Source: Candidatus Limnocylindrales bacterium (GTDB lineage Bacteria; Chloroflexota; Limnocylindria; Limnocylindrales; CSP1-4). From it: a stretch of DNA of 64,000 bases. Each line of letters begins with the position of its first letter. Position 1 is the stretch's first letter. The stretch spans positions 2,322 to 66,321 of the forward strand of contig DATCPH010000076.1 of the NCBI GenBank assembly GCA_036570185.1, given 5' to 3'. Made by a program: the position numbers. Positions 24,001 through 27,000 of this stretch are shown piece after piece.

Positions 24001-27000
24001 GTAGACCGGCACGGCATCCCACGGGATCCCACCGTTGAGGGCAACCGCGAGAGTGACCGCCGGGTTGAGATGGGCGCCGCTGATGGGTCCGGCCACGACC
24101 ACGCCGCAGAAGACGGCCAACCCCCACGCGAACGTGATGACGATCCAGCCGCTGTTCTGCGCCTTCGAGCGGTTGAGCAGGACCCCGGCGACGACGCCGT
24201 CCCCGAGCAGGATCAGCGTGCCCGTTCCCAACACCTCCGCCAGGAAGATCTCCAATGGATGCGCCATGTTTCACCCTCCACTACCACTAGACCGAACCTA
24301 GACGGCCGACGCGCGGGGTTCCCGCCCTCGAGAGGCAAAGAAAAAAGTCCGCGCCTCGGCATCACTGCCGAGACGGGACTTTTCACATCATGTCCCGAGG
24401 AAAGGCAAAACGGTTCTACTCCTCGGCGAGGATCGTTGTCAAGGGGCCCCGGGCCCGATTTCGATTCGGTTGCGGAATCGACGACAGAGCTTCGGCCAAT
24501 GCCTCCGCCGCGGACGGGCTGAGCGCGATGCTCTCAGCGAGGCGCAGACAGGACAACGCTTCGTCATAGCTGCCGATGAGCCCGTAGGCAAGGACGGGAT
24601 GCGGCAGGAGGTCCAGCTCGGCACGCGACATGTGCATCAGCACGAGGCCCGGGGTGATGACTGTGCCGACCCCCGGACGTCGGGGATGCTCGGCGAGCGA
24701 GCGTCGTAGCCCGGTCGAGTCCAACGCGAGACAGTGCACGAGGCCGAGCCCACCCAGATCGGCTACTCGGGCAGCGATTGCCGGACGTCGCGTCAGCACG
24801 ATCGCGATCCCGAGCCACTGGACGACGAAATCGACTGCCGCTTCGTCGGCATTGAGCCCGTGCACCGTGTCGAAATCGAGCGCGAGCGCCGGACCGGCAT
24901 TCGCGGCGCACTCCACGACGGTCGCAAGGTCGATGTCGCGCAGCATGAGACCGGGGTTGAGGCCCTCGAGGCCCTTGGGCATGTGGCGGCCCGCCTGAGC
25001 AACCAGGACGCGCGGCATGTGAGGCCGGCCAGGATCGGGCGCCAAGGGATGACGGGCGAGCGGCGAGCGGTCGGTCGCCAGCGAACCCTCAGCCATTGAA
25101 CGTCCACAGGTTCGCAGAACTCGTGGTCACGCCCACCGCCCCTGCCGCGAGGATGGCCCGGACGTCGGCCTCGGTGCGGACGAACCCCCCCGCCAGGACC
25201 GGTACCCGGAAGCCCGGCATGAGGTGCGCAACCGATGGCAGGACCACGCCAGGGAGAATCTCGACAATGTCCGGATCCGAGCGACTGATCGCACTGAGGG
25301 CTCCGTCGAGATGGCTTCGGCGTGAGAGCAGCAGTCGCTCGACGGCGACGGCGCCTTCCTGCCGGATCACCGAGATCAGCTGGCCGTGGGACGTAATGAT
25401 CGCGTCCACCCCGGAGCGGGCGAGCCAGCTCACCCCCGCCGCGTCGGCCCGCACCCCGTCGATCAAGTCGAGGTGCGCAGCGACGAGCTTGCGGGCATCG
25501 TGCGCGCGTCTGACCGTGGCGCCAAGCAGCAGCCCGTTGCCACGCAGGATGAACAGGATCGGGACGCGGCTTGCGAGCGCGGCATCCAGCGTCGCGTCAG
25601 ATACGATCGCCGCGCAGCACGGCGCATCCGCGAGGCGGGCAACGAAGTCGTTCGCAGAGGGCGGCGCGTATGTCACCATCGCCAGCCCGGGATTCACCTC
25701 GCATGATGCTTCTTAGCCGCTGCGGAAGCATAGCTCGCGCGTCGACCCGGCCCCCGAATGACGGCTGGATCCGCAGGGTCCGGGCGGGCGCCGTGGCCTT
25801 CGCCGAGATGGCTTTTCAGGGCTCTCCCACGACGAGCGCCGCGTTCAAGCCGCCGAAGCCAAACGACGTCGAGAGCACCCGCCGATAACGGCCCGGTCGG
25901 CCAACGCGCAGGAGGCCGGGCAGGCGAGCGGCGATCTCCTCATCGGGTACCTCGAGGTTGATCGAGGGCGGAGCCCAGCTGTCGCGGATCGTCAGGGCGG
26001 CGATCGCCGCCTCGATCGCGCCGGACGCGCCGAGCGGATGCCCGTAAAAGGCCTTCGTCCCGCTCACCGGAACAGTCTTCGCCCGATCGCCGAGGGCCAG
26101 GACGATCGCACGGGCTTCGGCCAGGTCACCGATCGGCGTCGACGACGCATGGGCGTTGACGTAGTCGATCTCGTCGGGCAGGTCGCCGCCGTTTTCGAGG
26201 GCGATGCGCGCGGCGCGGGCCGCTTCGATGCCATCGGCCCGAGGCTGGACCATGTGGTGGCCGTCGGACGTTGCGCCGTAGCCTCGAACCTCGGCGTACG
26301 GCAGCGCGCCCCGGCGTTCGGCGTTCTCGGCGAGCTCAAGGATCAGGAGGGCCGCGCCCTCGCCCATGACGAAGCCGTCTCGACCGGCGTCGAACGGCCG
26401 GGCGGCACGTTCTGGCTCTTGATTGCGGTGGGTGGACAGGGCCCGAATGATGTCGAAGGCGCCGAACGCGAGCGGGCTGAGCGGGACTTCGACGCCGCCC
26501 GCGATCGCCGCGTCGATCTCCCCTGATCGGATAGCGCCCAGCGCCTCGCCGATCGCGACCGTTCCCGACGCGCACGAGTTCGCTGTCGAGAGGATCGGTC
26601 CGCGGATGCCCATGGCGATCCCGAGATTGGCCGGCGCCGCCCCGCCAAAGACGGCCAGGGCAAGGGTGGCGGAGACGGAGCGCAATCCGCGCGCGAGGTA
26701 CCGCTCGTGCTGCTCCTCGGCGTAGGCGATGCCGCCGAGCGCGCTGCCCAGGTAGATTCCCGTGCGCTGGGCAAGGGCGTCGCCGAACTGGCCCGGATCG
26801 AGCCCGGCGTCGGCGAGGGCGAGGCGCCCGGCGACGAGCCCGAACTGGCTGAATCGGTCGAGCTGCCGGGCGGTCTTGGGGTCCATGTAGGCGAGTGGGT
26901 CGAAGTCATCGACCTGGGCCGCAACCTGCGAGCGGAAGGGACTCGGGTCGAAACGATCGATCCGCCGAACCGGCGAGGTCGTGGCGCACAGGCCGGCGCG

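What the first reader, a model, noticed from the sequence alone, without database searches (positions are those of the whole stretch)
24335..24399. Terminator / antiterminator alternative structures in the glpF leader, placed where a GlpP target would be
On the minus-strand RNA between glpP-like 1 (stop at 24416) and glpF (start at 24267) there is an 11-bp GC-rich hairpin, ccgucucggca-guga-ugccgaggcgg, followed by acUUUUUUcUUU. This is an intrinsic terminator in a genome where T-tracts are rare.

Immediately 5' of it, 'gggac-augaugugaaaa-guccc' forms a small alternative hairpin whose 3' arm, 'guccc', is also the 5' base of the terminator stem. The two structures are therefore mutually exclusive, which is the classic antitermination logic.
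Basis: seen in the sequence. Interest (0 to 1): 0.5.

Follow-up and report, generated by a model that had tools for sequence, protein, structure and literature searches.

The report
GlpP-type attenuator leader before glpF
A short leader RNA with its own promoter and a built-in stop signal sits in front of the glycerol-uptake operon of an uncultured soil Chloroflexota bacterium. It is very probably switched by the two GlpP antiterminator proteins encoded just upstream, which is a known kind of switch in a form and a lineage where it had not been described.

Summary
On the minus strand, 24379-24347 folds into a 14-bp GC-rich hairpin with one bulged C, followed by UUUUUUCUUU (24346-24337). That is the only 12-mer in the 64 kb with at least 9 A/T of one base.

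CGGGAC (24397-24392) can pair with GUCCCG (24379-24374), which is also the 5' base of the terminator stem.

The element is conserved in 60 copies across 58 genomes, mostly Limnocylindria. In 59 of 60 copies an exact TTGACA lies upstream, followed 17-18 nt later by a TA(G/C)AAC-like hexamer. In the window these lie at 24442-24437 and 24418-24413, the latter overlapping the glpP1 stop codon.

In relatives the element also occurs in divergent intergenic regions before glpF or dhaK, with no co-directional gene upstream. It is therefore a 5' leader attenuator, not merely the end of the glpP operon.

- The terminator helix shows compensatory changes.
- The six core pairs of the antiterminator are almost invariant.
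- One flanking pair covaries (U:A versus C:G).
- Three lineages carry changes in the shared segment that are repaired only in the terminator's 3' arm.

A GlpP-dependent conditional terminator is well supported. The hairpin-swap detail is plausible but unproven. There is no Rfam family and no detectable similarity to Bacillus glp leaders. A tandem pair of GlpP paralogs always accompanies the element. I rate it a new variant of a known kind.

The parts
25089..25697 (-). glpP-like 2, a canonical GlpP (G3P_antiterm, PF04309).
   Evidence: Pfam E = 6.8e-40. PDB 3KTS E = 1e-21 and 1VKF E = 8e-15.
24416..25096 (-). glpP-like 1, a strongly diverged GlpP paralog. Its ATG overlaps the glpP-like 2 stop by 8 nt (AATGGCTGA).
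   Evidence: Pfam PF04309 E = 2.1e-10. PDB hits only 5e-4 and 5e-3. No BLAST similarity to glpP-like 2. Overlap seen. The pair is conserved in all 59 related loci.
24437..24442 (-). Promoter-like -35 hexamer TTGACA, inside the 3' end of glpP-like 1.
   Evidence: Coordinates. An exact TTGACA is present in 59 of 60 elements, and in 50 of those 59 it lies 45-49 nt upstream of GGGAC as scored by the script, which picked a different TTGACA or GGG in most of the rest.
24413..24418 (-). Promoter-like -10 hexamer TAGAAC, 18 nt after the -35. Its TAG is the glpP-like 1 stop codon.
   Evidence: The TA(G/C)AAC-like hexamer is conserved at 17-18 nt spacing. It lacks the canonical final T. The transcription start is inferred near 24406 and has not been mapped.
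24337..24414 (-). Whole conserved leader element, as matched by covariance model R1.
   Evidence: 85.6 bits, E = 1.6e-18. It is the only forward-strand copy in the 64 kb. No Rfam family matches.
24392..24397 (-). CGGGAC, the 5' arm of the proposed antiterminator hairpin.
   Evidence: GGGAC is at least 90% conserved to invariant over 60 elements.
24380..24391 (-). Loop AUGAUGUGAAAA of the proposed antiterminator. It carries conserved unpaired positions (consensus nAUGAnnnGAnAA) and is a candidate protein-contact surface.
   Evidence: Alignments A3 and A4. The AUG is not a conserved start codon, because it varies to GUG, AUA, AGG, ACG and AAG.
24374..24379 (-). GUCCCG, the shared segment. It is both the 3' arm of the antiterminator and the 5' base of the terminator stem.
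24347..24379 (-). Intrinsic terminator hairpin GUCCCGUCUCGGCA-GUGA-UGCCGAGGCGCGGAC: 14 bp, one bulged C, 4-nt loop.
   Evidence: -26.1 kcal/mol. MFE and z-score. 98.8% of cells are paired and 4 pairs carry compensatory changes, with 0 of 500 shuffles reaching the observed score. RNAalifold consensus.
24337..24346 (-). U-tract UUUUUUCUUU.
20199..24267 (-). Regulated genes: glpF (24267-23509), dhaK (23408-22410), dhaL (22376-21744), glpK (21698-20199). The same-strand genes dhaM, ptsH and the glpA-like gene (17398-19930) may belong to the same transcription unit.
   Evidence: Pfam MIP, Dak1, Dak2 and FGGY. Gene calls of the source contig.

Best explanation
This is a protein-controlled transcription attenuator in the 5' leader of the glpF-dhaKL-glpK operon.

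A dedicated promoter (TTGACA 24442-24437, TAGAAC 24413-24418) starts a leader RNA near 24406. By default the leader folds into the 14-bp terminator (24379-24347) followed by the U-tract (24346-24337), and RNA polymerase stops after about 65-70 nt.

When glycerol-3-phosphate is present, the GlpP proteins encoded immediately upstream (canonical GlpP-like 2 and diverged GlpP-like 1, possibly acting as a heteromer) bind the first ~35 nt of the leader. That region is the CGGGAC-loop-GUCCCG stem-loop with its conserved loop bases. Binding holds GUCCCG away from the terminator's 3' arm. The remaining 8-bp upper hairpin then ends 7 nt before the U-tract and no longer terminates, so transcription reads into glpF.

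Shown here:
- the sequence features;
- their energetics;
- their conservation, including covariation in the terminator;
- the conserved promoter-like element;
- the occurrence of the element as a stand-alone leader in relatives;
- the constant linkage to PF04309 genes.

Inferred:
- the transcription start;
- GlpP binding and its dependence on glycerol-3-phosphate;
- which paralog contacts the RNA;
- whether the antiterminator acts as a hairpin or the protein simply covers GUCCCG.
For: Locus: two PF04309 genes, then a MIP gene, then Dak1, Dak2 and FGGY genes.

Hairpin and U-tract: z = -4.5, and the T-tract is unique in the window.

Energetics: antiterminator -8.5 to -9.1 kcal/mol, and it is the MFE of the nascent RNA. 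Terminator -26.1 to -33.8. Antiterminator plus upper stem -22.0. So the default state is termination, and about 4-12 kcal/mol of stabilisation is needed to prevent it. The same nascent-versus-full-length folding behaviour is seen in 10 diverse homologs.

Conservation: 60 elements in 58 genomes.

Terminator helix: 98.8% paired, 4 pairs with compensatory changes, 0 of 500 shuffles reaching the observed score.

Promoter-like element: TTGACA-N17/18-TAnAAC in 59 of 60 copies.

Stand-alone leaders: the element sits in divergent intergenic regions before glpF (L009) and dhaK (L010).

Other targets: in other genomes it precedes other genes, including histidine kinases, a response regulator, hydrolases and glpP itself.

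Antiterminator: the six core pairs are 88-100% pairable across 60 sequences, and the seventh pair switches between U:A (18 sequences) and C:G (5 sequences).

Precedent: B. subtilis PglpD, PglpFK and PglpT each consist of -35/-10 boxes, a GlpP site and an inherent terminator in the 5' UTR, and GlpP with glycerol-3-phosphate relieves termination (PMC9604022, PMC10573289).
Against: - There are no transcript data and no binding data, and the organism is an uncultured MAG.
- The six core antiterminator pairs never covary, because both arms are nearly invariant. Their conservation could therefore reflect protein recognition rather than pairing.
- Three lineages changed the shared segment and compensated only in the terminator's 3' arm. 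These are L049/L053 (GUCCC to GCCCC), L055 (GUCCCG to GUCCCA) and L065 (GUCCUG, where the antiterminator partner becomes a wobble). L061 and L062 have GGGCC and GGGUC in place of GGGAC.
- The antiterminator is short and weak compared with the terminator.
- The -10 hexamer lacks the canonical final T, and the simple promoter scan did not flag it.
- Covariance model R1 does not recognise the glpF and glpD leaders of a Bacillus genome (best 8.8 bits, E = 0.5). Homology to the experimentally studied leaders is therefore not shown.
- Only one copy lies in the 64-kb window.
Confidence: 0.7

Rival explanations
1. The switch and the regulator are the same, but there is no antiterminator hairpin. GlpP binds single-stranded RNA at the conserved GAnAAG-UCCCG junction, and perhaps GGGAC as a second site, and directly blocks the 5' base of the terminator from pairing. 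This resembles the way HutP or TRAP bind unstructured sites.
For: GGGAC stays invariant even where its proposed partner changed and only the terminator's 3' arm compensated (L049, L053, L055). Unpaired loop positions are conserved. The heptamer GACAAGU also occurs in the shared 5' block of both Bacillus sp. N5-665 glp leaders, and purine-rich GA motifs lie just 5' of the terminators next to glpP in Enterococcus and Clostridium.
Against: The two arms are perfectly complementary in 53-60 of 60 sequences, depending on the pair. The seventh pair covaries, U:A versus C:G. In L060 the loop sequence is entirely different but the CGGGAC/GUCCCG arms are kept. The hairpin is the MFE of the nascent RNA in every homolog tested. 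The shared heptamer is a post hoc observation.
Confidence: 0.2
2. It is an ordinary, unregulated intrinsic terminator that ends the glpP2-glpP1 transcript. glpF would then be transcribed from a separate promoter downstream of the U-tract.
For: In the window and in most relatives the hairpin lies directly after glpP-like 1. About 70 nt lie between the U-tract and the glpF ATG, and they include a TAGGTT at 24300-24295 that fits TAnnnT.
Against: The same element occurs where no co-directional gene precedes it, in L009 before glpF and in L010 before dhaK, and in L055 about 4.5 kb upstream of the glpP pair. In L009 nothing of the kind follows glpP-like 1. A conserved promoter-like TTGACA-N17/18-TAnAAC precedes the element in 59 of 60 cases, whereas the sequence downstream of the U-tract is not conserved. 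Roughly 35 nt 5' of the stem are more conserved than the stem itself, which a plain terminator does not require.
Confidence: 0.06
3. It is a small metabolite-sensing riboswitch, for example for glycerol-3-phosphate, that needs no protein. Alternatively, the inverted repeat CGGGAC-N12-14-GTCCCG is a DNA operator for a dimeric repressor.
For: A highly conserved 35-nt segment lies upstream of a terminator. There is a perfect inverted repeat just downstream of a promoter.
Against: No Rfam family matches. The candidate aptamer is a single 6-bp hairpin. Every locus encodes PF04309 antiterminator proteins. The spacing between the arms varies from 12 to 14 nt and the conserved loop bases are not palindromic, which argues against a dimeric DNA-binding site. 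No DNA-binding regulator gene is conserved next to the element. A leader peptide is excluded because the AUG is not conserved.
Confidence: 0.04

Closest known systems
Bacillus subtilis GlpP / glpD, glpFK and glpTQ leader antitermination (Holmberg & Rutberg 1991-92; Glatz et al. 1996, 1998; Darbon et al. 2002, as cited in PMC9604022 and PMC10573289)
   Same: A PF04309 regulator gene lies directly upstream of glpF. The order is promoter, short leader, intrinsic terminator, then glycerol catabolic genes. Termination is the default state. Leaders of different operons in one genome share the same inverted repeat (two copies in L010). A Bacillus genome examined here (L066) shows the same order, glpP | leader | glpFK | leader | glpD.
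   Different: No sequence or covariance-model similarity to the Bacillus leaders was detected. The terminator here is short (14 bp), whereas the Bacillus hairpins are long and interrupted. Here the conserved upstream block is complementary to the 5' base of the stem. Two very different GlpP paralogs are always encoded in tandem, instead of one. The regulon in relatives includes dhaKL, histidine kinases and hydrolases. The host is Chloroflexota (Limnocylindria) at about 69% GC.
RAT/terminator attenuators of the BglG/SacY/LicT family
   Same: The layout is the same: a protein-stabilised stem-loop with conserved unpaired bases whose 3' arm overlaps the 5' arm of an intrinsic terminator. The antiterminator is too weak to compete without the protein.
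   Different: The regulators here are TIM-barrel-like PF04309 proteins, not CAT-PRD proteins. The hairpin is a simple 6-7 bp stem with a 12-14 nt loop, not a ~29-nt RAT with internal loops. The presumed signal is glycerol-3-phosphate binding rather than PTS phosphorylation.
HutP and TRAP (proteins that bind single-stranded leader RNA)
   Same: A ligand-activated protein binds the leader and decides whether a terminator forms. This would apply if GlpP acts by direct occlusion.
   Different: There are no XAG or GAG triplet repeats here. The protein family is different.

Membership tests
GlpP-dependent antitermination leader (B. subtilis glp regulon type) | A PF04309 (G3P_antiterm) regulator is encoded in the locus. 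| tested here: met
   Two PF04309 genes lie immediately upstream (E = 6.8e-40 and 2.1e-10). The pair is present in all 59 related loci.
GlpP-dependent antitermination leader (B. subtilis glp regulon type) | A promoter is followed by a 5' leader that contains an intrinsic terminator upstream of the first glp gene. | tested here: met
   Terminator. Conserved -35/-10-like element in 59 of 60 copies. Stand-alone leaders in L009 and L010. The transcription start itself is not mapped, so this is a computational test only.
GlpP-dependent antitermination leader (B. subtilis glp regulon type) | Several operons of the regulon carry similar leader inverted repeats. | tested here: inconclusive
   Met in relatives: L010 has two copies (glpF and dhaK), and L055 has a copy about 4.5 kb upstream of the glpP pair. 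Only one copy lies in this 64-kb window. The rest of this genome was not available.
GlpP-dependent antitermination leader (B. subtilis glp regulon type) | Sequence or structure homology to the characterised Bacillus leaders. | tested here: not met
   Covariance model R1 on the Bacillus sp. N5-665 glpP-glpFK-glpD locus gives a best score of 8.8 bits, E = 0.5. The leaders differ by eye, apart from the heptamer GACAAGU. The B. subtilis 168 sequence itself was not available.
GlpP-dependent antitermination leader (B. subtilis glp regulon type) | Glycerol-3-phosphate-dependent binding of GlpP to the leader RNA, and relief of termination. | not testable with these tools
   Needs EMSA and in vitro transcription, or genetics.
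Intrinsic (Rho-independent) terminator | A GC-rich hairpin is immediately followed by a U-tract. | tested here: met
   14-bp stem at -26.1 kcal/mol, directly followed by U6CU3. Compensatory changes in 4 pairs.
BglG/SacY-type RAT antitermination | A CAT-PRD antiterminator protein and a RAT-like ~29-nt element. | tested here: not met
   Neighbouring genes carry PF04309 and no CAT or PRD domains. No Rfam match.
Known riboswitch or other Rfam cis-regulatory family | A match to a curated covariance model. | tested here: not met
   cmscan of 23000-26500 at E up to 10 returned only four chance-level hits, none of them in the leader.

The most novel reading that the evidence does not exclude
The leader motif and the always-tandem, translationally overlapping GlpP2/GlpP1 pair form a previously undescribed heteromeric, glycerol-3-phosphate-sensing antiterminator system with its own RNA motif class. 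It is spread through Limnocylindria and reaches Dormibacterota and some Bacillota MAGs. In many genomes it gates not glycerol genes but a soluble histidine kinase or response regulator, so that an RNA-level metabolite switch feeds a two-component cascade.
Probability: 0.3. Interest if true: 0.6.

Novelty: new variant of a known kind. Interest (0 to 1): 0.45.

Why it matters
GlpP antitermination has been studied almost only in Bacillus. The RNA determinants that GlpP recognises are still poorly defined, and the Thermotoga regulon study explicitly left the GlpP regulon out of its comparative analysis (PMC3750489).

This alignment of 60 sequences gives a compact candidate target of about 35 nt. 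It has clearly separated parts: two invariant arms, conserved loop bases, and a covarying terminator. That makes the recognition problem directly testable.

It also shows that intrinsic, U-tract terminators are used as regulatory devices in a ~69% GC Chloroflexota lineage where such tracts are otherwise rare. The obligatory pairing of two very different GlpP paralogs, and the use of the same leader in front of histidine kinases, are leads to a wider regulatory role.

The short portable leader could also serve as a glycerol-inducible part, as the B. subtilis glpD leader already does (PMC9604022).

Tried and rejected
1. Rfam scan of the locus at a permissive threshold found nothing relevant.

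None of the 80 loci listed in the scan output matched model R1, and none of the 122 pattern matches in the fetched loci looks like the element by eye. It therefore gave no extra diversity.

3. A second protein search, with GlpP-like 2, returned only close Chloroflexota relatives in the 120 hits listed. It did not give a route to the B. subtilis locus. A Bacillus chromosome misfiled as a plasmid (L066) was used instead.

4. The supplement of PMC9604022 holds the B. subtilis leader figure only as an image, so the sequences could not be read.

5. Alternative pairing of the upstream CCUCG with the terminator 3' arm CGAGG was rejected. The G-to-A change in L025 and L040 (CAAGG) is not compensated upstream.

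6. A leader peptide starting at the loop AUG was rejected. The AUG is replaced by GUG, AUA, AGG, ACG or AAG in homologs, and there is no properly spaced Shine-Dalgarno sequence.

7. A bidirectional terminator was rejected. The reverse-strand model hits are only the palindrome's mirror image and score 26-37 bits or less. The upstream A-run is not conserved, being GACAAG in most copies.

8. A DNA operator was rejected because the arm spacing varies and the loop conservation is asymmetric.
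Full report
**Source and locus.** The window is from a Candidatus Limnocylindrales (Chloroflexota) MAG, GCA_036794345.1 contig DAIRGW010000015, at about 69% GC. The minus strand carries, in order:
- a canonical GlpP gene, glpP-like 2 (25697-25089; PF04309 E = 6.8e-40);
- a strongly diverged paralog, glpP-like 1, overlapping it by 8 nt (25096-24416; E = 2.1e-10);
- a 148-nt intergenic region;
- glpF (24267-23509), dhaK, dhaL and glpK;
- then dhaM, ptsH and glpA-like genes.

**Checking the observation.** The minus strand between 24399 and 24335 reads cGGGAC-AUGAUGUGAAAA-GUCCCGUCUCGGCA-GUGA-UGCCGAGGCGCGGAC-UUUUUUCUUU.

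The true stem has 10 contiguous pairs, a bulged C and 4 further pairs (GUCC/GGAC). That is 14 bp at -26.1 kcal/mol, or about -33 kcal/mol when the flanking A/U pairs are counted.

The leader folds far better than shuffled controls (z = -4.5, 0 of 200). It is the only long-stem terminator hit in 20 kb. Its T-tract is the only 12-mer in the window with at least 9 of one A/T base, and only three runs of six or more A or T exist in 64 kb.

The small upstream hairpin is real and extends to 6 bp: CGGGAC 24397-24392 with GUCCCG 24379-24374, at -8.5 to -9.1 kcal/mol. It is the minimum-energy fold of the transcript until the terminator's 3' arm has been made. It uses 6 of the terminator's 14 pairs.

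**Related loci.** A search of one genome per species with an alignment of GlpP-like 1 homologs returned 59 loci. Almost all are Limnocylindria or other Chloroflexota MAGs. One each is labelled Dormibacterota, Bacillota and Methylomirabilota, and one is unidentified. Every locus has the glpP2-glpP1 tandem.

Wherever glpF follows glpP-like 1, the intergenic region contains the same element. A covariance model built from 31 copies (A3, R1) found further copies:
- one 1.6 kb downstream of glpP-like 1, directly before glpF (L009);
- a second copy before dhaK (L010);
- one before a hydrolase gene about 4.5 kb upstream of the glpP pair (L055);
- a more diverged 'class 2' version directly after glpP-like 1 in the loci where glpF is not the next gene.

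Class 2 copies precede soluble HisKA/HATPase_c kinases, an OmpR-type regulator, alpha/beta hydrolases, or glpP itself. The window has a single copy, at 24414-24337 (85.6 bits).

**Leader or operon end?** Three results show that the terminator belongs to a leader.

1. An exact TTGACA lies upstream of GGGAC in 59 of 60 elements. In 50 of those 59 it scores at 45-49 nt, and most of the other distances come from the script picking a different TTGACA or GGG. It is followed after 17-18 nt by a TA(G/C)AAC-like hexamer. In the window these are at 24442-24437 and 24418-24413, the latter containing the glpP-like 1 stop codon. This is a promoter-like element. The transcription start near 24406 is inferred.
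2. In L009 and in the dhaK copy of L010, the gene upstream of the element is on the opposite strand, so there is no transcript to terminate other than the one started by that promoter. In L009 nothing similar follows glpP-like 1.
3. The ~35 nt 5' of the stem are more conserved than the stem itself, whereas the sequence between the U-tract and glpF is not conserved.

**Structure evidence.** For the terminator helix, 98.8% of cells pair, four pairs show changes on both sides, and no shuffle reaches the observed score. Shifted registers pair only 32-51%. RNAalifold returns this hairpin as the consensus.

For the antiterminator, the six core pairs are pairable in 53-60 of 60 sequences, but both arms are nearly invariant, so there is no covariation in them.

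One flanking pair is informative. The base after GGGAC and the base before GUCCC are U and A in 18 class-2 sequences, C and G in 5 others, and unpaired in class 1.

Three lineages argue against strict pairing, because they changed the shared segment and repaired only the terminator's 3' arm:
- L049 and L053: GUCCC to GCCCC, with GGAC to GGGC;
- L055: GUCCCG to GUCCCA, with C to U opposite;
- L065: GUCCUG, with G to A opposite and a G·U wobble left on the antiterminator side.

L061 and L062 have GGGCC and GGGUC in place of GGGAC.

In L060 the loop is entirely different but the arms are retained. In ten diverse homologs the nascent RNA folds into the upstream hairpin and the full-length RNA folds into the terminator.

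My reading is that the terminator is under strong structural selection. GGGAC and GAnAAG-UCCCG are under sequence selection, most simply as protein contacts. The hairpin swap is plausible but not demonstrated.

**Mechanism.** Termination is favoured by about 4-12 kcal/mol over the state with the antiterminator plus the upper stem (-22.0 versus -26.1 to -33.8). The default state is therefore off, and a factor is required to switch it on.

If GUCCCG is held, whether in the hairpin or by direct protein contact, only an 8-bp upper hairpin can form. That hairpin ends 7 nt before the U-tract. From established knowledge of intrinsic termination, a stem must abut the U-tract to release the transcript.

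The constant presence of PF04309 genes makes GlpP with glycerol-3-phosphate the obvious factor. The B. subtilis precedent supports this: there, PglpD, PglpFK and PglpT each consist of a promoter, a GlpP site and an inherent 5'-UTR terminator relieved by GlpP and glycerol-3-phosphate (PMC9604022, PMC10573289).

The 8-nt overlap of the two paralog genes suggests coupled expression and possibly a heteromer. GlpP-like 2 resembles solved GlpP structures (3KTS, 1e-21). GlpP-like 1 barely does, and the two paralogs share no BLAST-level similarity.

**Comparison with known leaders.** A Bacillus chromosome (L066) has the classical glpP | leader | glpFK | leader | glpD order. Its two leaders share a 5' block (GACAAGUUAAUAA) and long terminators.

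Model R1 does not recognise those leaders (8.8 bits, E = 0.5), so the architecture is shared but homology is not shown. The heptamer GACAAGU occurs in both systems. That is a post hoc lead, not evidence.

Leaders or terminators next to single glpP genes in Enterococcus, Clostridium, Vescimonas and Streptomyces are different again. Rfam holds nothing that matches. I found no paper on GlpP in Chloroflexota, and the one regulon study that mentions GlpP skipped it (PMC3750489).

**Rivals.**
- A plain glpP operon terminator is contradicted by the stand-alone copies and the conserved upstream promoter.
- A protein-free riboswitch, a DNA operator and a leader peptide are each disfavoured. The reasons are the tiny candidate aptamer, the constant GlpP linkage, the variable arm spacing (12-14 nt) with non-palindromic loop conservation, and the non-conserved AUG.
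- Direct occlusion by GlpP, without a hairpin, remains a live variant of the main explanation.

It is a new variant of a known kind of system. It is a GlpP-type attenuator with a distinct, compact RNA motif that is not in Rfam, tied to a tandem pair of GlpP paralogs, in Limnocylindria and a few other lineages. Interest is moderate: the logic is classical, but the alignment gives a testable definition of a GlpP target, and the paralog pair and the kinase targets are new leads.

Noticed in passing
window 25697-24416 (minus strand); also all loci L007-L064: Two very different PF04309 (GlpP) paralogs are always encoded in tandem, with an 8-nt start/stop overlap in the window. The downstream one is so diverged that it shows no BLAST similarity to the upstream one. 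Organisms with a single glpP (Bacillus, Enterococcus, Clostridium, Streptomyces) have unrelated leaders. This suggests a heteromeric antiterminator that co-evolved with this RNA motif.
   Followed up: partly
L012:6627-7623, L020:6688-7713, L036:4000-4979, L045:6717-7755, L028:1441-2550, L034:6609-7520, L043:6620-8586, L055:1426-3578: A diverged 'class 2' version of the same promoter-leader-terminator precedes soluble HisKA/HATPase_c histidine kinases, an OmpR-type response regulator, or alpha/beta hydrolases. The presumed GlpP regulon therefore reaches beyond glycerol genes.
   Followed up: partly
L066:7568-7780 and 10121-10253 (Bacillus sp. N5-665): The two Bacillus glp leaders share a 5' block, GACAAGUUAAUAA. 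The heptamer GACAAGU is also the consensus at the junction of the loop and the 5' arm in the Limnocylindria element (GAAAAGU in the window). This may be a common GlpP recognition core or may be coincidence.
   Followed up: no
window about 58376-58440 (minus strand): A second terminator-like site lies at one of the only three runs of 6 or more A/T in the window: GCCGCGGGCC-AGAUC-GGGCCCCCGGC followed by UUUUUUGAUG. Its gene context was not examined.
   Followed up: no
L022, L025, L032, L039, L040, L047 (about 6690-7150 in each): In one subgroup, 380-555 nt separate the leader terminator from glpF. The spacer contains conserved blocks, for example GAGGAGGGnnGnATGTAGCnTGC and GTCTCCGTGTCATGGCAGTnGC...GAGGGAGAGGG. 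This could be a small ORF or a second RNA element.
   Followed up: no
window 25816-29753 (minus strand): Directly upstream of the glpP pair, on the same strand, lie genes for a ketoacyl synthase, a Polyketide_cyc2 cyclase, an FAD monooxygenase and a methyltransferase. Together they look like a small polyketide-type cluster in an uncultured Limnocylindrales genome.
   Followed up: no
window 19931-20198: A 268-nt gap separates the glpK stop from the dhaM (EIIA-man) start. It has no match to the leader model and no terminator hit, so it is unclear whether dhaM-ptsH-glpABC belong to the same transcription unit.
   Followed up: no
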